This document shows, piece after piece, positions 997-6,709 of a stretch of DNA of 6,709 nucleotides. Origin of the DNA: a virus (Duplodnaviria > Heunggongvirae > Uroviricota > Caudoviricetes); the IMG/VR virus record IMGVR_UViG_2802429221_000016, positions 1-6,709 of that record; one strand, given 5' to 3'. The position numbers and the translations under genes were made by a program. How positions within the stretch are numbered: position 1 is the first letter of the stretch; every line of letters begins with the position of its first letter. The notes under the pieces were generated by a model that saw nothing but the letters and a program-made list of their open reading frames with translations, did no database searches and had not been told where the DNA came from.

Positions 997-1095
997 TACG
1001 TATCCTTATACCTGAAATCATCGCAAGTATGCCTGGCCGCGAGATTATGGCACACTTGTCCGGTTAACTCTCGTTCTCATACAGGTAGCACAAAC

Positions 1096-1140
1096 GTGAA
1101 AATCCTTGTTGATGAAAAAGATGATCGGTTAATTTATTGA
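1096..1140 (+). pseudogene. pdxB: 5' remnant of pdxB (erythronate-4-phosphate dehydrogenase): native start plus 7 codons, then foreign sequence and a stop
   Basis: GTG at 1096 preceded by AGGT (1083-1086) reads M-K-I-L-V-D-E, identical to the PdxB N-terminus as I recall it (MKILVDENMPYA...). It then reads K-D-D-R-L-I-Y-stop (TGA 1138-1140) instead of N-M-P-Y-A. It is divergent from flk, as pdxB is in E. coli/Salmonella. The match is only 7 residues, so this rests on context and needs alignment to a reference. Confidence 0.4.
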
Positions 1141-1160
1141 TATAAAAGGATTTATATCAA
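1137..1160. repeat. Perfect 10-bp inverted repeat TTGATATAAA-agga-TTTATATCAA just inside the junction
   Basis: Read directly: 1137-1146 is the reverse complement of 1151-1160, with a 4-bp spacer. It overlaps the stop of the pdxB remnant. Candidate recombinase/regulator binding site or element-terminal structure; function not established. Confidence 0.5.
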
Positions 1161-1199
1161 CGTATGTCCACGCAGTGACCACATTTTCGAGATATAGTT

Positions 1200-1230
1200 A
1201 AAGCCCGTAAAATATGCGGGCTTTATAATT
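1200..1230 (+). terminator. Intrinsic-terminator-like hairpin followed by a U-rich tract
   Basis: AAAGCCCG (1200-1207) pairs with CGGGCTTT (1217-1224) around a 9-nt loop, followed by TATAATTCTTGCTTT. It would stop read-through from the native pdxB promoter into the element. The stem is flanked by A and T runs, so it could also act weakly on the minus strand. Confidence 0.4.
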
Positions 1231-1231
1231 C

Positions 1232-1261
1232 TTGCTTTGCCCTCTTTTCAAACCATAAAAT
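1232..1261 (+). promoter_or_regulatory. Candidate sigma70 promoter for the moron gene
   Basis: TTGCTT (1232-1237), 18-bp spacer, TAAAAT (1256-1261); predicted start about 1268, roughly 49 nt upstream of the ATG. Hexamer match only, AT-rich background, so weak. Confidence 0.3.
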
Positions 1262-1316
1262 TTGTGTGCCTTTTTGGGGTGGTTAGTTTTATCTTTGATA
1301 TTATGGAGAATTATTC

Positions 1317-2057
1317 ATGCTTCATTGGGTTTGTACAAAATGTCAGTCTAAAAATTCTACGAAGGAATCAGTGTGTCCTGCGTGTGGAACTTCTTTTTGG
1401 TCGACGCAGAAAAAAGAAAGGAGAGGGTGTTTATTGTTGGTTGTAATGTTCTTCGTTGTGTTTTGGGTTATTGGGCAATTATCCGGAAACGAATCCGATT
1501 CACAGGTAAATAATATTCCATCGAAAGATCATATTAGCGATGAACTTGCTTTATCTGGAGTAGACAAGGCGAAACCGTATTCTTTTGTGCGTTATGATGA
1601 CATAAGTTATGCGGGACGAAAGAGATTTAAGGTTTTTATAGTGTCGCCTGAGTCTCAAGATTTAGAATCAAGAGCTTCGACAGCAATGGCCGCGGCTATT
1701 GAGTGGCAGAAAGAGAAGAGAGCTGACTTTGTATCTGTGTTGCTTCTACCTACAGAAAATTCTGAAGGTAGTTATCGGTTGGCAATGGTTGATTATTCTC
1801 CGGATGGTTGCGGAACTGGTGCTGTATGTGATAATAAAAAATGGACTATATTGTCTAGTGACGTAATATTAACGAAATCGCAACTTCAATCTATATCCTT
1901 GTGGAATGAGTATAAGAAAAAGTTTGCGGGTAATGATGGAATTTTGGATTTAAAGGAAGAAAAGAAATTGAAGCAGTTTATTAGTAAACAGCTAAATATT
2001 CCTGTTAAGGATGTATTTGCTCCAGATATTTTTCCTTTAAAGAAAATCGAAGATTAA
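1317..2057 (+). CDS. Moron-like membrane protein: N-terminal Cys4 zinc ribbon, one TM helix, about 190-aa C-terminal domain; function unknown
   Basis: 246-aa ORF with GGAG (1305-1308) 8 nt before the ATG. CxxC-x10-CxxC (C6, C9, C20, C23), basic stretch QKKERRG, hydrophobic segment CLLLVVMFFVVFWVIGQL (about residues 38-55), then a hydrophilic domain containing a CGTGAVC cysteine pair. Positive-inside rule suggests N-in/C-out. Visibly AT-rich relative to flanks (by eye, not computed). Followed by a terminator. I do not recognise the C-terminal domain. Confidence 0.8.
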   Translation: MLHWVCTKCQSKNSTKESVCPACGTSFWSTQKKERRGCLLLVVMFFVVFWVIGQLSGNESDSQVNNIPSKDHISDELALSGVDKAKPYSFVRYDDISYAGRKRFKVFIVSPESQDLESRASTAMAAAIEWQKEKRADFVSVLLLPTENSEGSYRLAMVDYSPDGCGTGAVCDNKKWTILSSDVILTKSQLQSISLWNEYKKKFAGNDGILDLKEEKKLKQFISKQLNIPVKDVFAPDIFPLKKIED

Positions 2058-2128
2058 CAAAATAAATAGACGAGACTGAATTAGTATTATTGTAATCTTT
2101 AACTGGTACCCTCACTTGTGAGGGCACC

Positions 2129-2172
2129 AAAAAGAAAACCCGCAGTTTTTACGCTGCGGGTTTCTGCTTTGG
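2129..2172. terminator. Bidirectional intrinsic terminator between the convergent moron and hok transcripts
   Basis: Hairpin CCCGCAG (2139-2145) / CTGCGGG (2154-2160) with an 8-nt loop. Plus strand: followed by TTTCTGCTTT (2161-2170). Minus strand: followed by UUUUCUUUUU (complement of 2129-2138). A second imperfect hairpin (2105-2128, CCCTCA...TGAGGG) sits immediately next to it. Confidence 0.6.
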
Positions 2173-2216
2173 GATGTGTATAGGGTGCCTTATCGACCTT
2201 ACCCTGGCAACCGATT

Positions 2217-2251
2217 GACGGGGAAGTTGCCTTCCCCGTCGCGGTTTTCTT
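2217..2251. other. Perfect 10-bp palindromic hairpin abutting the hok stop codon
   Basis: GACGGGGAAG (2217-2226), loop TTGC, CTTCCCCGTC (2231-2240), then GCGG + TTTTCTT on the plus strand. It could be a second plus-strand terminator, or, read on the minus strand, a structured element in the hok 3' UTR. Confidence 0.4.
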
Positions 2252-2393
2252 ACTGTCTACACTGTAAGAACGCCGCAAACTCCGCTCCCCAGAAGCTCAT
2301 CCGTATCTCGCAGAGCGAACCCTGCAACATCCAGATGATGAGGATTGCCGTCACGCACAGTGTGGTGATGGCGATTAGCGATTTTTGCGACAT
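2250..2393 (-). CDS. hok: Hok/Gef-family type I toxin (small membrane-depolarising peptide), 47 aa
   Basis: Not in the ORF track (below its length cut-off). Minus-strand ATG at 2393..2391 with AGGAG 8 nt upstream; stop TAA at 2252..2250. Translation: MSQKSLIAITTLCVTAILIIWMLQGSLCEIRMSFWGAEFAAFLQCRQ. It shares the family layout (N-terminal TM helix, then W-M-x-x-x-S-L-C-E-I/L, then E-x-A-A-F-L-x-C) with E. coli HokA (...FTWMIRDSLCELHIKQESYELAAFLACKLKE) and R1 Hok (...[25 protein letters not shown]), both quoted from memory. Confidence 0.8.
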   Translation of the reverse strand: MSQKSLIAITTLCVTAILIIWMLQGSLCEIRMSFWGAEFAAFLQCRQ

Positions 2394-2496
2394 AGCGCTT
2401 GCTCCTTTTTCGGGGAGGCGCTAACCTACGACTTGCGAAGGTTGTATGGCTAGGGCCTCGGGTTAACGTTAAAGTTGACTCGGGGCCTTTCCACAT
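2257..2496 (-). CDS. mok: mok-like overlapping reading frame (modulator of hok translation)
   Basis: 79-codon ORF in a different frame that begins upstream of hok and overlaps nearly all of it, ending 7 nt from the hok stop. ATG at 2496 with GAAGG upstream. The protein is low-complexity and basic, as expected for a frame that exists for translational coupling rather than for its product. The true start could be internal. Confidence 0.4.
   Translation of the reverse strand: MWKGPESTLTLTRGPSHTTFASRRLAPPRKRSKRYVAKIANRHHHTVRDGNPHHLDVAGFALRDTDELLGSGVCGVLTV
2454..2487 (+). other. Strand-specific RNA hairpin (14 bp with three G-U pairs) antisense to the mok 5' region
   Basis: GGCCTCGGGTTAAC (2454-2467) pairs with GTTGACTCGGGGCC (2474-2487) around loop GTTAAA. 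All three non-Watson-Crick positions are G-U/U-G on the plus-strand RNA and would be C-A mismatches on the minus-strand RNA. Candidate part of a Sok-like antisense RNA; only TTT follows, so it is not a convincing terminator on its own. Confidence 0.3.
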
Positions 2497-2546
2497 TCGG
2501 CCTTCGGGTTTACCCTCCAGCCATCAGCCGAAAGGCACCCGCGCGA

Positions 2547-2576
2547 ATTCTAGCCTGGTTTTTTCCCTTGTTTCAA
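2547..2576 (-). promoter_or_regulatory. Candidate sigma70 promoter for the hok/mok mRNA
   Basis: On the minus strand: TTGAAA (plus coords 2576..2571), 18-bp spacer, TAGAAT (2552..2547); predicted start about 2540, giving a transcript of about 410 nt to the terminator at about 2130. Hexamer match only. Confidence 0.3.
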
Positions 2577-2580
2577 TCCG

Positions 2581-2610
2581 TTGAGACTTATCAGCCTTCT
2601 GATGTAAAAT
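2581..2610 (+). promoter_or_regulatory. Near-consensus sigma70 promoter of the candidate sRNA
   Basis: TTGAGA (2581-2586), 18-bp spacer, TAAAAT (2605-2610). It is back-to-back with the candidate hok promoter; the two -35 elements are 4 bp apart. Confidence 0.45.
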
Positions 2611-2616
2611 TCCCGA

Positions 2617-2681
2617 CCGCAGACATTATTCAGTCACGCATTTGATACATGCTTCCGCCGGCGTTCGCGCCGGTTTTTTTT
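2617..2681 (+). ncRNA. Candidate small RNA, about 65 nt, from promoter to intrinsic terminator
   Basis: Predicted start about 2616-2619, 7-9 nt after the -10. The 3' end is a hairpin CCGGCG (2658-2663), loop TTCG, CGCCGG (2668-2673) followed by eight T (2674-2681). No plausible ORF inside (the only ATG frame runs through the terminator). Sok-like antitoxin RNAs are about this size, but this unit overlaps the hok mRNA only if that mRNA starts to the right of 2681; identity unresolved. Confidence 0.4.
2656..2681 (+). terminator. Textbook Rho-independent terminator (GC stem, UUCG tetraloop, U8)
   Basis: Read directly: perfect 6-bp GC stem, extendable by one G-U pair, UUCG loop, eight consecutive T. 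Plus-strand specific (no U-run on the other side). Confidence 0.7.
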
Positions 2682-2915
2682 CGTCCTGTTGCTGCATAGA
2701 TCGTCATGCGCGATCGAGGCGCGGTATTGATCCTTTTTCAGTTTAATTTTGACTCTCAATTTTACGCATGCCGCGCCGCGTCTGGCTTCGTTGTTTGACG
2801 ATTTTTTGATGCGATCCTTTCGTGATCGTTTCCCGTCTCGCGTAAAATGCAAAAACTCTTTTAATATCATGCGGTTTTATTGCCCCTGCCATTTATGCGA
2901 TCGTAAAAACCACTC

Positions 2916-3020
2916 TGAAAACTGAAAAAAATTTCAAAGCGTGAAATTTCAGATCTTCGCTTTTCCCTCAGTTGCTGCGCGGGCTGGCGGTCATTTTTGC
3001 ACGGCAGAAAACTGAAAAAC
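2916..3020. repeat. A-tract repeat cluster: two copies of GAAAACTGAAAAA plus TGAAA/TTTCA palindromes
   Basis: GAAAACTGAAAAA at 2917-2929 and again at 3007-3019 (13/13). TGAAA-aaaa-TTTCA at 2923-2936 and the perfect 10-bp palindrome TGAAATTTCA at 2942-2951. Non-coding; candidate regulator or nucleoid-protein binding sites. Confidence 0.5.
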
Positions 3021-3033
3021 TGTTTCGACACAA

Positions 3034-3100
3034 AACCCGCGGGTTGGAGGGGGTAGCGCGGTTTACGTCACCTCACGCTTTACGTCACACCGTTTACGTG
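3034..3100. repeat. 12-bp perfect palindrome followed by three direct repeats of TTTACGT(C/G)
   Basis: AACCCGCGGGTT (3034-3045) is self-complementary. TTTACGTCA at 3062-3070 and 3079-3087, and TTTACGTG at 3093-3100, spaced 17 and 14 bp. Lies just downstream of the terminator-like hairpin that follows the 565-aa gene. Candidate operator / iteron / arm-type protein-binding array. Confidence 0.5.
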
Positions 3101-3149
3101 GTGTGCGCATACAGCGCCGGAATGGCACGCAGAACGCATTAATCATGTG

Positions 3150-3184
3150 GCAGATATGAAAACGCACGACCGGAGCCGTGCGTT
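3150..3184 (-). terminator. Candidate intrinsic terminator of the minus-strand structural operon
   Basis: AACGCACG (3161-3168) pairs with CGTGCGTT (3177-3184) around an 8-nt loop, about 40 nt after the stop at 3222-3224. On the minus-strand RNA it is followed by UUUUCAUAUCU. Confidence 0.4.
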
Positions 3185-3221: not shown

Positions 3222-4919
3222 TCAGGCGATAAGGTCACCGTATTTTTCGCGCAGGCTCGTAGCCTGTTTGGCGTCTGCGGCAAGTTCGCTGCTGTTTGTT
3301 GGTGCGCCGGTGTTGCTGTGGGTGTGGTTTGCAGTGTGTGTGGCCAGCAACTGAACCAGATCCAGAATATCAATCAACAACGTCAGCAGATTAAGTCCGG
3401 ATTTTTCCCGTGAGCCACCGCGACCAATAAATACTGTCGGGGCTGTAAACTCCAGACCGCCGTCCGCCCGGCATGTTCTGCGGCCTCCCACGTTTTCAGT
3501 AAGGTCGCGCTCAATCGTGGATGTCGCCCCTTTGAGTTTAGTCAGCAAATCCTGCGCTACCATCTGGATATGCTCACCGGCTGCGATCGCATAATGACCA
3601 GTAGTAATGTGTTCTGTCTGGCCTGTCATCAGCTTGCTGGTTCCCAGAACGCTGGTTATGTCGTTTGCCTGTACTGTTGTTGTTCTGGTTGTTGTTGTGC
3701 GTTCTTCCTGATCGCTGTTAATGGTTCGCCTGGCTGAATGCTCCCTGATTTGCTGATCGGTTTCTCTGTGCCAGCTTCCGTCAGTCGTGACGCGCTGAAA
3801 CACTTCTGCGCGCTGTTGCTGCAGCTGTTCGCCGGGCTTTACATCAGGCAGGTTATGGCCAGCGGGTAAGATTTGCCTGATGACAGGTTTATCCGGTCGT
3901 CCTTCAATGTTGGATATTTCCACGATGGTGCCAGCCGGCGGGTAGGCAAAACATCCCGCCTCACTGCCAGCCATGGGGACGGGGAGCGGTACTGCCGGGT
4001 AAACGGGCGTATCGCTTTTATCGTTGCCGTTCTCATCAAGCAACTGCACATCGACGGCGTAGCGTGGGCGGAAACTGTCGGCCACATCGCCCAGGGTGGC
4101 GGGCTCCGTTGGTGCAATGACGCGCGCCAGCCGGGTATGTAGCGTACCGCTGGCCAGTTCCGGGAACTGTGTTTCCATTTGTCTGCGTAATGGTGATTTG
4201 GAAACAGGGCTGCCCGTGGCGGTAAGGCGCTCCCATGTCAGGGTCATTTTCTCGTTGTTGAGGGCTACACGGGTAATGCGCCCGGCCGGAAGGTTCACGC
4301 CCGGTCGCACAGTTTCCATAAACATGATGTCGATGCTGTTTCCGCCGCTTTGCCCGAGTGTGTACTGTTGCGGAATATCCGGCATTGTAATACTGGCAAA
4401 TCGTGAATCAGCTGCGCTTCCCACAAATACAGAACCGTCCGGCATTGGATGCCAGACGTAATCGCTGATACTGAATGCTCGCCCCAGTTGGCTGAGCAGT
4501 TGTGCTCCGCTGCCGCTGTGGGTGATGTAGGGAGTTGGTATGCTGACGTAATCCGCATCTGGCGTGGTGAAAACGATGCCGCTTTGTTTGCCCAGATTAT
4601 CGAGTACCCCCCGCAACGTCGGGTGTTGCATGGAGCAAGGGAAATCAAAATCCAGCACAGCAGCTGCTTCACGGATAAAAAGGCGACGTGAGCCATTTTC
4701 AGCAGGTTGATCGCGCTCAATGTAGCCGGAGAAATAGCGCCATGCTTCACCGTCACGGCCGAGATCAATTTGTACCATTGCGCCGGCAAGGCTGTGTTCG
4801 GGTGACAGATTGTTAACAGAAATGAAGCCACGACCGGCAGCATTCAGGGTAAGAACAAGGTTTATATCGGCAATTTCCACCCGTTCGCCATTAATCATGC
4901 AGCGTTGTATCAATTTCAT
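3222..4919 (-). CDS. Phage baseplate hub/central spike protein (fused gp27-like N-terminal region + gp5/gpV-like OB-fold and needle), 565 aa
   Basis: Strong SD GAGGAAGGG upstream; start overlaps the upstream stop (ATGA at 4916-4919). The segment PPAGTIVEISNIEGRPDKPVIRQIL fits the OB-fold signature of phage gp5/gpV and T6SS VgrG (typical VgrG form P-R-I-G-Q-E-V-V-V-D-F-L-E-G-D-P-D-Q-P-I-I, from memory). It is followed by Thr-rich beta-strand-like repeats (TTTTRTTTV, HITTGHYAIAAGEHI) and a His-rich apex THTANHTHSNTG resembling the metal-binding tip of P2 gpV-type spikes. The N-terminal 320 aa is unassigned and the hub call is inference. Confidence 0.55.
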   Translation of the reverse strand: MKLIQRCMINGERVEIADINLVLTLNAAGRGFISVNNLSPEHSLAGAMVQIDLGRDGEAWRYFSGYIERDQPAENGSRRLFIREAAAVLDFDFPCSMQHPTLRGVLDNLGKQSGIVFTTPDADYVSIPTPYITHSGSGAQLLSQLGRAFSISDYVWHPMPDGSVFVGSAADSRFASITMPDIPQQYTLGQSGGNSIDIMFMETVRPGVNLPAGRITRVALNNEKMTLTWERLTATGSPVSKSPLRRQMETQFPELASGTLHTRLARVIAPTEPATLGDVADSFRPRYAVDVQLLDENGNDKSDTPVYPAVPLPVPMAGSEAGCFAYPPAGTIVEISNIEGRPDKPVIRQILPAGHNLPDVKPGEQLQQQRAEVFQRVTTDGSWHRETDQQIREHSARRTINSDQEERTTTTRTTTVQANDITSVLGTSKLMTGQTEHITTGHYAIAAGEHIQMVAQDLLTKLKGATSTIERDLTENVGGRRTCRADGGLEFTAPTVFIGRGGSREKSGLNLLTLLIDILDLVQLLATHTANHTHSNTGAPTNSSELAADAKQATSLREKYGDLIA

Positions 4920-5491
4920 GTTTTCCCTTCCTCTTTCACACTCCCAATGCCAACAGCATCCAGACCAGAGCCAACGGCATCATTGATTTTTTTCCAGAAC
5001 GAACTTTGCGTATTCATGCCTTTGTCTGGTGCCTGTTCGCTGCCATTCTGGGTCTGCTGTCTGGCGATGGTTTTTTGTGAACCGCTACGTGCTGATGCTT
5101 TCTCTGGCACGCTTAATTTTTCCCTGAGAGTAAAGGTGACCTGCCAGTGCATTTTTCCCTGTTGTTCCGTGGCATCAATGCCACCAGAAAATACCCCCTG
5201 TCGCATATTGATTGCCTTCGCGGTAGCGTTAGCAATGCGATATGTTTTTTTAGCACCGTTGCTTTCTGTTGCCTCCGCAAGCTGAAAAATACGGGTCAGA
5301 ATAGCTTCATCGTTAAAATCAATAACCCCCGACACGCGCAGCTCTTTAGCCTTGTTTCCCTGCTGGGCGCTCGTGGTGCTGGTTGACTGTCCGGACATAT
5401 CTTTGTCCGGTAGTTGCATGGTGGCGCTGACGGTGATGTTGCGCAGCAGAATGGCTTCCCCGTCAAGCGCAAGGACAATCATCTGGGTCAT
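4916..5491 (-). CDS. Phage structural-operon protein, 191 aa, function unknown (possibly tail/baseplate-associated)
   Basis: Long ORF in the same operon; its stop overlaps the next start in ATGA, and its start region overlaps the upstream ORF by 29 nt. No motif I can assign; the tail/baseplate guess is from position only. Confidence 0.6.
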   Translation of the reverse strand: MTQMIVLALDGEAILLRNITVSATMQLPDKDMSGQSTSTTSAQQGNKAKELRVSGVIDFNDEAILTRIFQLAEATESNGAKKTYRIANATAKAINMRQGVFSGGIDATEQQGKMHWQVTFTLREKLSVPEKASARSGSQKTIARQQTQNGSEQAPDKGMNTQSSFWKKINDAVGSGLDAVGIGSVKEEGKT

Positions 5492-6176
5492 GTAGTGCTT
5501 CCCTTAGTGATGAGAGATTATCGCCGACGAACAGCATCACAGCTGTAAAAACCCACTCGGGGTGTGGGATGTTTTTTTGTATCAGCACTGCAGCCTGGCT
5601 AAGAGCTCCCTTGTAGCAAAAGCGCCACACCGGGCAAAATTTTTGCCGGAGTGCGGCCTGCTGATCAGCGATTTCCTGTAAGGCTTTATCTCTCGCATTC
5701 ATGAACTGATGCAGCGATGATGACAATGTTTCCGGTGATGTGGCGGCAGGAGTGGCTGCCTGTGCAATGGTTGCCGCCAGCGACATGCTTCGAGTGGTCT
5801 GTGTCGACAGCATTATCGGTTCCGGAAGTGATGTTGCCGGTCTGGCGGGGATTTGCATTCTGCTGATGGCCAGTGAAAGCTGGCTGGAGATCATGCGGGA
5901 CATTCGTCCCACCTCCGGCAACGGAAATGCGCCTGAAAATTGCCTGGCGAGTGATAAAAACTCGCCAGCAGAAGGGGTGCAAAATAACAGCGCCACAATG
6001 TCTTTTTCTGTGCTTTCTTTCAGATAGGGTAAAAGTGCAGATACAGCATTTTCGGGGCTGAGATAACGCCCCGATGGTTTGATGTTTCCGGTATTTTCTG
6101 ACCATGGATGAAGGCAAACCACAGAGCATTTAATGTGCATGGCTGACGGACGCAGAATTGCCTTTTCCCATTTCAT
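5463..6176 (-). CDS. Phage structural-operon protein, 237 aa, function unknown
   Basis: Long ORF; its start overlaps the upstream stop (ATGA at 6173-6176). Ala/Thr/Ser-rich central linker. No recognisable motif. Confidence 0.6.
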   Translation of the reverse strand: MKWEKAILRPSAMHIKCSVVCLHPWSENTGNIKPSGRYLSPENAVSALLPYLKESTEKDIVALLFCTPSAGEFLSLARQFSGAFPLPEVGRMSRMISSQLSLAISRMQIPARPATSLPEPIMLSTQTTRSMSLAATIAQAATPAATSPETLSSSLHQFMNARDKALQEIADQQAALRQKFCPVWRFCYKGALSQAAVLIQKNIPHPEWVFTAVMLFVGDNLSSLREALHDPDDCPCA

Positions 6177-6709
6177 TCTGACTCTCCAGTCTGAAAAGCG
6201 CGGATGTCGGCAAGATTATTCAGGCCATCCAGCACGTCCTTCATCTGTCGCTGACGTCGATAAATTTCATCATTGCGGTTAACCTGCGCCTGCGCCATAG
6301 CTGTAGCCAGCTCCTCAAGCTCTGGCATCGACATCTTCACTTGCTGATTATCGGCATCACCCCATGTCATAACGTCCCGCGCTGTGTCGGATTTTGATGC
6401 CATTACCACCGGATAGATACGGGCCAGTGAGCTGGGGCCAGCATTCCAGCTACGACCGTTCCATTCGAACGTGAACGGCTGCGCCTCCTGTTCTGTGCGC
6501 CACACCTCGATTTCCCGCTTTTTGGCATCCTTCGCCGCGGTGATAAGTTCCGGCGTGACGGTGAACGGGGTTATTTCTCCCCATTTGCCGCTCTGTAACT
6601 CTTCCCAGATGCGCTGGCCTGTCGGGACGCTATCGTCCTGCATGGCGGTATACGGGACGAATTCCGTTTCACCTTCAAATAACACCTCGCAGTCAACCGC
6701 ACCATTTTC
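6173..6709 (-). CDS. Phage structural-operon protein, 5' end outside the window (at least 178 codons visible)
   Basis: The frame stays open from 6709 down to the stop at 6173-6175. The track's start at 6685 is a GTG with no convincing SD, so the gene probably begins upstream of the window. Acidic, coiled C-terminal part. Not assignable. Confidence 0.55.
   Translation of the reverse strand, partial: ENGAVDCEVLFEGETEFVPYTAMQDDSVPTGQRIWEELQSGKWGEITPFTVTPELITAAKDAKKREIEVWRTEQEAQPFTFEWNGRSWNAGPSSLARIYPVVMASKSDTARDVMTWGDADNQQVKMSMPELEELATAMAQAQVNRNDEIYRRQRQMKDVLDGLNNLADIRAFQTGESE

What the first reader, a model, noticed from the sequence alone, without database searches (positions are those of the whole stretch)
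3222..4919. Terminal gene of the structural operon encodes a fused hub-spike (VgrG-like) protein
The 565-aa protein has a gp5/gpV-type OB-fold motif (PPAGTIVEISNIEGRPDKPVIRQIL), a Thr-rich needle-like segment and a His-rich apex (THTANHTHSNTG), and is preceded by about 320 aa that could be a gp27-like hub. It is the last gene of the operon, followed by non-coding DNA, which is atypical for contractile-tail clusters where wedge and fibre genes follow the spike. So the gene order here is unusual, or the cluster is a remnant or a tailocin-like derivative.
Basis: partly seen in the sequence, partly recalled or inferred. Interest (0 to 1): 0.45.

Follow-up and report, generated by a model that had tools for sequence, protein, structure and literature searches.

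The report
Phage tail hub-spike fusion protein
The gene encodes the membrane-piercing tip of a phage tail, with plug, needle and metal-binding point in one protein, and its place at the end of the tail operon is normal for the HP1 group of P2-like phages, so the finding is correct but ordinary.

Summary
It is the ortholog of Haemophilus phage HP1 orf35 (phrog_2258, E 4.6e-233; 42% identity to HP1 orf35).

The "fused hub-spike" reading holds:
- An AlphaFold2 model best matches single-chain hub-spike proteins (Alg8, Pvc8, Afp8, VgrG; Foldseek E 1e-16 to 1e-11) and stand-alone hubs (Mu gp44, P1, E217, pyocin R2, T4 gp27).
- 21 of 24 homologs hit the gp5/VgrG OB-domain model.
- An HxH motif (H532, H534) is invariant.
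- Many relatives encode the two halves as adjacent genes.

That split puts the fusion point at residues 230-243, not about 320, so the hub is compact (about 235 aa).

The "unusual order, remnant or tailocin" reading does not hold. HP1 has the same order: tape measure, W, J, I, fibre, orf33, orf34, orf35, genome end. Near-identical E. coli loci lie in complete prophages with head genes. The neighbouring orf34-like protein has a tube fold, so the central-hub module sits last in this phage group. A conserved terminator, a hok/sok locus and the prophage-host junction follow.

Verdict: a new member of a known kind; low interest.

The parts
3222..4919 (-). Whole gene: 565-aa hub-spike-tip protein, ortholog of HP1 orf35, last gene of the late (tail) operon
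   Evidence: ORF. phrog_2258 E 4.6e-233 over 1-565. tblastn to HP1 orf35: 42% identity, E 7e-108. Foldseek to Alg8, Pvc8, Afp8 and VgrG at E 1e-16 to 1e-11.
4215..4919 (-). Residues 1-235: compact gp27/gpD/gp44-like baseplate hub module
   Evidence: AF2 pLDDT 80-92. Foldseek hub-only hits: Mu gp44 1wru E 3.9e-10 TMt 0.52, MuSo2 3cdd, E217 8eon_E, phiCD508 9g8s_q TMt 0.58, pyocin R2 6u5h, T4 gp27. BFVD gpD / '43 kDa tail protein' hits, best a 243-aa protein with TMt 0.76. 31 stand-alone homologs of 223-244 aa. Vibrio phage gp40 (229 aa) aligns to residues 2-229. No hit to the Pfam Phage_GPD model.
4134..4214 (-). Residues 236-262: linker and N-terminal helices of the spike module; the fusion point is at residues 230-243
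   Evidence: Stand-alone C modules start at profile positions 238-243. Vibrio phage gp41 aligns from residue 244. Helices 243-257 in the model.
3870..4133 (-). Residues 263-350: gp5/gpV/VgrG-type OB-fold domain
   Evidence: Five predicted strands. PF04717 E 0.02 for this protein (below cut-off), but hit by 21 of 24 homologs, best 4.1e-5. TIGR01646 VgrG E 4.9e-4 over residues 314-363. Aligns to the VgrG1 OB motif at 414-447.
3735..3869 (-). Residues 351-395: connector holding the most conserved stretch of the family (PDVKPGEQLQQQR); role unknown
   Evidence: Invariant columns P362-R370 in alignment A1. Low model confidence.
3405..3734 (-). Residues 396-505: Thr/Ser/Gly-rich segment, probably a triple-stranded beta-helix needle
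   Evidence: T+S 24% and G 11%. Gp5_trimer_C E 0.057 here; hit by 4 of 24 homologs, best 5.2e-5. T4 gp5 beta-helix chains at E 0.07-0.1 with the family profile. The monomer model is unreliable here (pLDDT 26-48), so the fold is inferred.
3225..3404 (-). Residues 506-565: apex, predicted as helix 511-530, HxH motif (H532-T-H534, nt 3318-3326), helix 543-561
   Evidence: H532 and H534 invariant in 24 sequences. Same motif in HP1 orf35 (LATHTHRG) and P2 gpV (LHTHKH). A C-terminal HxH marks iron-loaded, tip-less spikes (PMC12407873, citing Browning et al. 2012). Helices at pLDDT 71-79.
3155..3184 (-). Intrinsic terminator of the late operon: 10-bp stem, UCCG loop, U tract
   Evidence: RNA fold -26 kcal/mol, z -2.9. 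Compensatory change in the stem in E. coli AJ1.
4916..5491 (-). HP1 orf34-like 191-aa protein: tube-fold baseplate protein, probably the tube-to-hub adaptor/initiator (the role of P2 gpU)
   Evidence: PF25759 HP1_ORF34 E 9.7e-54. AF2 core pLDDT 85-91. Weak but consistent Foldseek hits (E 1.6e-3 to 3e-2, prob 0.97-1.0) to baseplate tube-initiator chains of Bas63, A-1(L), E217, Pa193, Pam3 and diffocin, and to tail-tube proteins. No sequence similarity to P2 gpU.
5463..6176 (-). HP1 orf33-like 237-aa protein, function unknown
   Evidence: phrog_31292 and phrog_1677, both 'unknown function'. No Pfam, NCBIfam, PDB or PADLOC hit. Absent from the Vibrio Canoevirus module.
6173..6709 (-). DUF4376 tail-fibre-associated gene, cut by the window end; shows that fibre genes lie upstream of the hub-spike gene
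   Evidence: PF14301 E 6e-16. phrog_1141 'tail fiber protein' E 9.4e-75. Gene called to the contig end in L006.

Best explanation
The gene encodes the central membrane-piercing device of the contractile tail of an HP1-group (Peduoviridae) temperate phage integrated next to flk in E. coli.

One polypeptide carries three functions that P2 and Mu split over two proteins and T4 over three:
- a compact gp27/gpD-like hub (residues 1 to about 235);
- a gp5/gpV-like spike, made of an OB fold (about 263-350) and a Thr/Gly-rich beta-helix (about 396-505);
- a built-in apex with an HxH motif (H532, H534).

Inferred mechanism, by analogy with solved systems. Three copies form a trimer. The hub domains make a pseudo-hexameric ring that plugs the tube end through the tube-fold orf34-like adaptor. 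This ring nucleates the W/J/I wedges. The three C-terminal parts intertwine into a needle whose tip is stiffened by a metal ion held by three HxH motifs. On sheath contraction the needle is driven through the outer membrane and then leaves the tube so that DNA can exit.

The gene is last in the late operon because HP1-group phages place the central-hub module (orf33, orf34, orf35) after the fibre genes. A terminator follows, then a conserved non-coding stretch, a hok/sok module and the prophage end.

Shown here: homology, synteny, fold similarity of the hub, motif conservation and the existence of split relatives. Inferred: trimer formation, the beta-helix fold, metal binding and the piercing role.
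For: - Orthology with HP1 orf35 and its family.
- Identical gene order in HP1, where orf35 ends 192 bp from the genome end.
- Complete prophages around 91-97% identical loci in E. coli A36 and AJ1, with no separate gpV, gpD or gpU genes annotated.
- Foldseek on PDB: Alg8 7aef_q 6.5e-16, Pvc8 9qgm 1.2e-15, AnCIS 7b5h 1.4e-15, VgrG 9jg9 6.6e-15, Afp8 6rbk 5.9e-14. Hubs: Mu gp44 3.9e-10, P1 1.4e-8, E217 2.3e-8, pyocin R2 5e-5, T4 gp27 5.9e-5.
- Foldseek on BFVD: gpD / 43 kDa tail protein hubs.
- OB domain PF04717 in 21 of 24 homologs, and gp5 beta-helix models in 4 of 24.
- Sub-threshold VgrG TIGRFAM and PDB VgrG/gp5 hits at the expected positions.
- Invariant HxH, shared with HP1 orf35 and P2 gpV. 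Its meaning is taken from PMC12407873.
- Split relatives. Among the top 150 representatives there are 13 fused proteins, 31 hub-only proteins of 223-244 aa, and 61 classed as stand-alone spike modules (a few of them short fragments), starting at profile positions 238-243. One concrete case is the pair of adjacent, overlapping genes gp40 and gp41 in Vibrio phage 1.202.O.
- The orf34-like neighbour has a tube fold like baseplate initiators.
- Published HHpred annotation of HP1-group homologs as 'cell-puncturing device' and 'P2 gpU' (PMC10612066).
- Terminator with a compensatory change.
Against: - This protein itself is below the curated cut-off of every OB, gp5 and VgrG model: 15.7 bits against 23.8 for PF04717, and 19 bits against 122 for TIGR01646.
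- It has no hit to the Phage_GPD hub model.
- hhalign of the family profile against single P2 gpV and gpD sequences finds nothing.
- The C-terminal 210 residues of the monomer model have pLDDT below 50, so the beta-helix is not shown structurally.
- Global TM-scores to VgrG-type targets are only about 0.3.
- The hub is 50-150 residues shorter than characterised hubs.
- The predicted helix-HxH-helix apex differs from the gpV apex.
- No virion, mutant or metal data exist for this family.
Confidence: 0.85

Rival explanations
1. The cluster is a decayed prophage remnant or a tailocin (headless killing particle), and the terminal position of the spike gene reflects loss or rearrangement of downstream wedge and fibre genes.
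For: For this exact genome the upstream DNA cannot be seen. The only long contig that carries the identical protein ends inside the fibre-associated gene. Downstream of the gene there is only non-coding DNA and a hok/sok module.
Against: The same order, with the gene last, is found in the viable phages HP1, HP2, K139, Kappa, phiO18P and ESSI-2. Loci 91-97% identical in E. coli A36 and AJ1 belong to full prophages with portal, terminase, scaffold, capsid, sheath, tube, tape measure, W/J/I wedge and fibre genes, all upstream. All four genes in the window are intact, their ends overlap, and a conserved terminator follows.
Confidence: 0.04
2. It is a type VI secretion VgrG (TssI) spike, as NCBI's PGAP names one ortholog, delivering effectors from the bacterium rather than serving a phage tail.
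For: PGAP calls the AJ1 ortholog 'type VI secretion system Vgr family protein'. The best fold matches include VgrG structures. There are weak TIGR01646 and TIGR03361 hits.
Against: The TIGRFAM scores are 16-19 bits against cut-offs of 122 and 186. The gene sits in a phage late operon between fibre genes and the prophage end, with no Hcp or TssA-M genes nearby. Its orthologs are in phage genomes. There is no effector or adaptor domain. The HxH apex implies no PAAR tip.
Confidence: 0.02
3. Only the C-terminal module (from about residue 240) is the spike. The N-terminal 235 residues are not the hub but another baseplate or assembly domain. The true hub would then be orf33 or orf34, or would be missing.
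For: There is no Phage_GPD sequence hit. The module is 50-150 residues shorter than known hubs. TM-scores to hubs are moderate (TMt 0.5-0.6). orf33 is unassigned.
Against: Foldseek probabilities are 1.00 for more than 20 independent hub structures from phages, pyocin, eCIS and T6SS. No non-hub family appears among the significant hits. The module has a high-confidence model (pLDDT 80-92). It sits directly N-terminal to the OB fold, as in VgrG, Pvc8 and Afp8. When split, its gene immediately precedes the spike gene. orf34 has a tube fold, not a hub fold. No other hub candidate is annotated in the complete prophages.
Confidence: 0.07

Closest known systems
Haemophilus phage HP1 orf35, with the orthologs HP2 orf35, K139 orf39, Kappa kp45 and the ESSI-2 / phiO18P 'baseplate protein' (phrog_2258)
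   Same: Direct ortholog: a full-length profile match, and 42% identity to HP1 orf35 over residues 1-441. It occupies the same position as last gene of the late operon, after the orf33 and orf34 homologs. It has the same helix-HxH-helix C-terminus.
   Different: The host is E. coli and the sequence has diverged. The middle needle segment varies in length among members. No member of the family has been characterised experimentally, as far as the searched literature shows.
P2 gpD (hub) plus gpV (spike with built-in iron-loaded apex); likewise Mu gp44 plus gp45
   Same: It belongs to the same virus family as P2 (Peduoviridae). The inferred functions are the same: a hub fold (Mu gp44 E 3.9e-10), an OB fold, a needle, and an HxH near the C-terminus as in gpV.
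   Different: Here there is one polypeptide instead of two genes in two operons. No sequence similarity to P2 gpV or gpD is detectable by profile-sequence comparison. The hub is about 235 aa against 387 (gpD). The apex is predicted to be helical, with 31 residues after the HxH against 12-14 in gpV. The gene sits after the fibre genes, whereas in P2 gene V comes before W-J-I and gene D after T-U.
VgrG (T6SS) and Pvc8 / Afp8 / Alg8 (extracellular contractile injection systems)
   Same: The single-chain architecture is the same: gp27-like hub, then OB fold, then beta-helix. These are the best structural matches, aligned over the full length.
   Different: It is not a sequence-level member (TIGRFAM scores are far below the cut-offs). 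It is about 90-100 residues shorter before the OB motif (motif at 316-347 here against 414-447 in VgrG1). It has its own HxH apex rather than a PAAR-capped blunt end. The context is a phage tail.
Split hub and spike genes of other HP1-group phages, for example gp40 and gp41 of Vibrio phage 1.202.O (Canoevirus)
   Same: gp40 (229 aa) aligns with residues 2-229 at 31% identity. gp41 (231 aa) aligns with residues 244-434 at 39% identity. The position after the fibre and orf34-like genes is the same.
   Different: There are two overlapping genes instead of one. The Vibrio spike ends in a Cys/His-containing tail without the helix-HxH-helix apex. No orf33 homolog is present.

Membership tests
HP1 orf35 family (phrog_2258), terminal baseplate gene of HP1-group Peduoviridae | Full-length sequence match to the family profile | tested here: met
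   E 4.6e-233, residues 1-565 against profile 1-544 of 544. HP1 orf35 42% identity, E 7e-108.
HP1 orf35 family (phrog_2258), terminal baseplate gene of HP1-group Peduoviridae | Synteny: follows the orf33 and orf34 homologs after the fibre genes, as last gene before the genome or prophage end | tested here: met
   PF25759 HP1_ORF34 in the upstream gene. The HP1 map. E. coli prophages.
gp27 / gpD / Mu gp44 baseplate hub (Pfam Phage_GPD, PF05954) | Sequence match to the family model | tested here: not met
   No hit at E <= 0.1 for this protein, and none at E <= 0.01 in 24 homologs. hhalign against P2 gpD: probability 0.2%.
gp27 / gpD / Mu gp44 baseplate hub (Pfam Phage_GPD, PF05954) | Hub fold | tested here: met
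   Foldseek probability 1.00 to Mu gp44, MuSo2, P1, E217, Pa193, PhiTE, phiCD508, pyocin R2 and T4 gp27, and to BFVD gpD-type proteins. The model has pLDDT 80-92 over residues 1-235.
gp27 / gpD / Mu gp44 baseplate hub (Pfam Phage_GPD, PF05954) | Trimer forming a pseudo-hexameric ring under the tube | not testable with these tools
   Only single-chain prediction was available.
gp5 / gpV / VgrG OB-fold spike (Pfam Phage_base_V, PF04717) | OB-domain model above the gathering score | tested here: inconclusive
   This protein scores 15.7 bits against a 23.8 cut-off, E 0.02. 21 of 24 homologs hit at E <= 0.01, best 4.1e-5. The model shows five strands at 263-350.
gp5 / gpV / VgrG OB-fold spike (Pfam Phage_base_V, PF04717) | Triple-stranded beta-helix after the OB fold | tested here: inconclusive
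   Gp5_trimer_C E 0.057 here; 4 of 24 homologs, best 5.2e-5. gp5 helix fragments at E 0.07-0.1. The monomer model is unreliable in this region.
Iron-loaded, tip-less spikes (P2 gpV / phi92 gp138 type) | HxH motif near the C-terminus | tested here: met
   H532-T-H534, 31 residues from the end, invariant in 24 sequences. The criterion is from PMC12407873.
Iron-loaded, tip-less spikes (P2 gpV / phi92 gp138 type) | Buried Fe ion coordinated by six His residues in the trimer; gpV-like apex fold | not testable with these tools
   The predicted helix-HxH-helix arrangement differs from what is recalled of the gpV apex. No trimer model or metal analysis was possible.
T6SS VgrG / TssI (TIGR03361, TIGR01646) | Score above the curated cut-off | tested here: not met
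   16.1 bits against 186.35, and 19.2 bits against 121.8.
T6SS VgrG / TssI (TIGR03361, TIGR01646) | T6SS gene neighbourhood | tested here: not met
   The neighbours are phage tail genes on one side, and hok/sok followed by the host gene flk on the other.

The most novel reading that the evidence does not exclude
HP1-group phages may build the most condensed central piercing device known for a myophage. It would be a single chain with a hub of only about 235 aa, a spike, and an apex of a different design from P2 gpV: a coiled-coil helix, an HxH metal site at the turn, and a back-folding C-terminal helix. Repeated fusion and fission at one precise point (residues 230-243) within the lineage would make it a natural system for asking why hub and spike are separate or joined.
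Probability: 0.3. Interest if true: 0.4.

Novelty: new member of a known kind. Interest (0 to 1): 0.15.

Why it matters
The practical value is mostly in annotation. Genes of this family in E. coli and many other Enterobacterales are labelled 'hypothetical', 'baseplate protein', 'head completion protein' or, misleadingly, 'type VI secretion Vgr family protein'. This analysis supports one consistent label, central hub-spike of the HP1-group phage tail, with domain boundaries.

It also explains why no gpV, gpD or gpU genes are found in these prophages. That matters for prophage-completeness calls, because such elements should not be scored as defective or as tailocins for lacking them.

Two structural points have modest interest: the compact hub and the possibly helical HxH apex. 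The coexistence of fused and split forms may interest people who engineer contractile injection systems.

Tried and rejected
- Direct profile-sequence comparison of the family with P2 gpV, gpD and gpU (hhalign) gave nothing. A single-sequence template is too weak, so this is not evidence of absence.
- A sequence search of PDB with the protein and with the family profile gave only sub-threshold VgrG, Pvc8 and gp5 hits, at the expected positions.
- I tested whether Vibrio phage XM1, Pam3 or MMNM ('minimal myophages') are the same tail type. XM1 has separate hub and spike genes in a different order and is not HP1-like. XM1 gp11 was only a weak match to the orf34-like model (E 0.13).
- I tested whether the small gene after the split Vibrio spike (gp42, 65 aa) corresponds to the apex of the fused protein. 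No similarity was found.
- Rfam at gathering thresholds and tRNA/tmRNA scans of the window found nothing, so the non-coding stretch is not a known RNA gene or a tRNA attachment site.
- The 669-nt intergenic region has no match in the phage collection.
- PADLOC found no defence family for the DUF4875 cargo protein, orf33 or the spike.
- PDB sequence searches for the orf33-like and orf34-like proteins found nothing meaningful.
- Literature searches found no experimental study of HP1 orf35.
Full report
**The observation**

The window holds a 565-aa ORF at 3222-4919 on the minus strand.

The ORF is the last of four co-directional genes on the minus strand whose ends overlap: 6173-6685, 5463-6176, 4916-5491 and 3222-4919. 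It is a real, widespread gene:
- It matches PHROG family phrog_2258 ('baseplate protein') end to end at E 4.6e-233.
- At least 1108 homologs turned up in the large protein database, mostly from Enterobacterales.
- The exhaustive search of representative clusters found 850.

**Where the window comes from**

- Residues 1-996 (minus strand) encode the host gene flk.
- 1317-2057 encodes a low-GC DUF4875/zinc-ribbon cargo gene.
- 2129-2552 is a hok/sok-type toxin-antitoxin locus.
- From about 2118 rightwards the DNA is the end of a prophage.

The identical protein lies on a draft E. coli contig with the host genes flk-yfcJ-fabB-mnmC on one side. That contig ends inside the fibre-associated gene on the other side.

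Two complete E. coli genomes carry loci 97.5% (strain A36) and 91% (isolate AJ1) identical to the window. In both, the locus is the end of a complete P2-family prophage. The gene order is portal, terminase, scaffold, P2-type capsid, head completion, tail completion, sheath (DUF2586), tube, holin, endolysin, chaperones, tape measure, gpW-like (DUF2590), gpJ, gpI, two fibre/assembly pairs, and then the three terminal genes. No separate gpV, gpD or gpU gene is annotated in either prophage.

**Gene order**

Haemophilus phage HP1 has exactly this order: orf27 (tape measure), orf28, orf29, orf30, orf31 (fibre), orf32 (assembly), orf33, orf34, orf35. In HP1, orf35 ends 192 bp before the right end of the genome.

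The window protein is 42% identical to HP1 orf35 (E 7e-108). It has orthologs at the same terminal position in HP2, K139, Kappa, phiO18P, F108, ESSI-2 and about 70 other phage records. The upstream gene is a clear HP1_ORF34 family member (PF25759, E 9.7e-54).

A published comparison divides Peduoviridae into an HP1 group and a P2 subgroup on the basis of their tail modules. It reports HHpred assignments of 'P2 gpU' and 'cell-puncturing device' in an HP1-group phage (PMC10612066).

So the terminal position is the norm for a large group of viable phages. It is not a sign of decay or of a tailocin. The wedge and fibre genes are upstream of the spike gene rather than downstream, as P2's own map shows by contrast.

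**What the protein is**

Sequence models alone are weak for this particular protein:
- PF04717 (OB domain): E 0.02.
- Gp5_trimer_C: E 0.057.
- TIGR01646 (VgrG): E 4.9e-4.
- All are below the curated cut-offs.
- PDB sequence searches give only marginal VgrG, Pvc8 and gp5 hits, though always at the expected positions.

Across 24 family members, however, 21 hit the OB-domain model (best 4.1e-5) and 4 hit the gp5 beta-helix model (best 5.2e-5).

An AlphaFold2 model built on the family alignment is confident for residues 1-235 (pLDDT 80-92). It is moderate for the OB region and poor for residues 353-507. A poor result there is expected for a chain that can only fold as an intertwined trimer.

Foldseek against the PDB returns as top hits the single-chain hub-spike proteins of contractile injection systems and T6SS, aligned over the full length:
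- Alg8 7aef_q, 6.5e-16
- Pvc8 9qgm, 1.2e-15
- Anabaena CIS 7b5h, 1.4e-15
- VgrG 9jg9, 6.6e-15
- Afp8 6rbk, 5.9e-14

Stand-alone hubs follow: PhiTE, E. coli c3393, Mu gp44 (3.9e-10, TMt 0.52), MuSo2, P1, Bas63, E217, phiCD508 (TMt 0.58), pyocin R2 and T4 gp27. The viral library gives gpD, '43 kDa tail protein' and XkdQ hubs. The best of these is a 243-aa protein with TMt 0.76.

**Domain boundaries and the fusion**

The exhaustive HMM search shows that the family exists in two states. Among the best 150 representative clusters:
- 13 are full-length fusions.
- 31 are stand-alone N modules of 223-244 aa that cover profile positions 1-227.
- 61 were classed as stand-alone C modules that begin at profile positions 238-243. 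A few of these are short fragments, and most run to the C-terminus.

A concrete case is Vibrio phage 1.202.O (Canoevirus). There gp40 (229 aa) aligns with residues 2-229, and the overlapping next gene gp41 (231 aa) aligns with residues 244-434. Both follow the orf34 homolog.

The OB fold (five predicted strands, 263-350) and the helices before it belong to the spike module. The hub is compact: about 235 aa, against 285-390 aa in characterised hubs. The OB motif lies about 100 residues closer to the N-terminus than in VgrG1 (316-347 against 414-447).

**The apex**

Of the 'His-rich' stretch, only H532 and H534 are invariant. The same HxH occurs in HP1 orf35 (LATHTHRG) and in P2 gpV (LHTHKH).

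According to PMC12407873 (citing Browning et al. 2012), an HxH near the C-terminus marks spikes with a built-in apex. In those spikes a buried Fe ion is held by three HxH motifs, and no separate tip protein is needed. The protein is thus best described as hub, spike and tip in one chain.

The model places the HxH between two helices (511-530 and 543-561, pLDDT 71-79). If that is right, the apex design differs from gpV. This rests on a monomer model and is only an inference.

**The neighbours**

The orf34-like protein (4916-5491) has a confidently modelled core. Its Foldseek hits are weak (E 1.6e-3 to 3e-2) but uniformly to tube-fold baseplate chains and tail-tube proteins: Bas63, A-1(L) 'baseplate initiators', E217, Pa193, Streptomyces CIS, Pam3, diffocin, GTA and monocin tube. 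It is probably the tube-to-hub adaptor, the role of P2 gpU, although no sequence similarity to gpU is detectable.

The orf33-like protein (5463-6176) remains unassigned. It is absent from the Vibrio module.

Together the terminal genes form the central-hub module of the baseplate. HP1-group phages place this module after the fibre genes.

**Downstream of the gene**

A 10-bp hairpin followed by a U tract lies 37 nt after the stop codon (-26 kcal/mol for the 91-nt stretch, z -2.9). In the AJ1 prophage two stem positions differ in a compensatory way, which supports a functional terminator.

The remaining approximately 600 nt up to hok/sok have no ORF with homologs and no match in the phage collection. 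They are nevertheless 96% conserved among three E. coli prophages and contain short direct repeats. By analogy with HP1, where cos lies just after orf35, this may be the cos/packaging region. That was not tested.

**Verdict**

The suggestion of an unusual order, a remnant or a tailocin is not supported.

The protein is a new E. coli member of the known HP1 orf35 family, whose role as puncturing device is already inferred in annotation and literature. Residual interest lies in three things: the compact hub, the possibly helical HxH apex, and the natural fused/split polymorphism. Interest is low (0.15).

Noticed in passing
window 2129-2552 (Hok ORF 2250-2393, minus strand): A hok/sok-type type I toxin-antitoxin locus sits between the phage late operon and the prophage end. 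The 47-aa Hok/Gef peptide is intact. The Rfam sok model matches below its gathering score (35.8 bits against 59, E 4e-6). The same module is shared at 83-88% identity with hundreds of Stx and P2-like phages.
   Followed up: partly
window 997-2118 (gene 1317-2057, plus strand): Low-GC (35-40%) cargo lies between host flk and the prophage end. It encodes a 246-aa protein with an N-terminal zinc ribbon and DUF4875. Other E. coli strains carry different genes at this spot (TagO plus a zinc-ribbon protein, Com plus a DNA methyltransferase, a TM2-domain protein), so it looks like a variable moron hotspot. There is no PADLOC defence hit.
   Followed up: partly
window 2553-3160: About 600 nt of non-coding DNA have no match in the phage collection. 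They are still 96% conserved among three E. coli prophages, more than the flanking coding DNA in AJ1. The stretch holds GTGACGTAAA twice (3059-3088) and AAACTGAAAAA / TTTTTCAGTTT three times. It may be the cos/packaging or a regulatory region.
   Followed up: partly
window 5463-6176, minus strand: The HP1 orf33-like protein is 237 aa and Cys-rich at both ends. It has no Pfam, NCBIfam, PDB or PADLOC hit, and its PHROG families are of unknown function. It overlaps the next gene by 29 nt and is absent from the equivalent module of Vibrio Canoevirus, so it is not a universal part of the hub module.
   Followed up: partly
window 3810-3848 (residues 358-370 of the 565-aa protein): The most conserved stretch of the whole family is PDVKPGEQLQQQR, just after the OB fold. 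Residues P362-R370 are invariant in 24 sequences that are only 48-86% identical overall. It has no counterpart in the weak gp5/VgrG alignments and no assigned role; it could be an interface with the tape measure or the hub.
   Followed up: no
L001 (E. coli A36) and L002 (E. coli AJ1): Near-identical prophages are integrated at different chromosomal sites: next to serS in A36, and next to flk in AJ1 and in the window. Both carry ParM and partition-family genes near the other end, which is unusual cargo for an integrated P2-family prophage.
   Followed up: no
L002 23189-24886, and phage records H41 and H47: Annotation of this family is inconsistent. Public records call it 'type VI secretion system Vgr family protein', 'head completion protein', 'baseplate assembly protein V', 'baseplate hub subunit and tail lysozyme' or 'hypothetical protein'. 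The orf34 homolog is labelled 'adenine glycosylase' or 'nucleoid DNA-binding protein' in some phage records.
   Followed up: no
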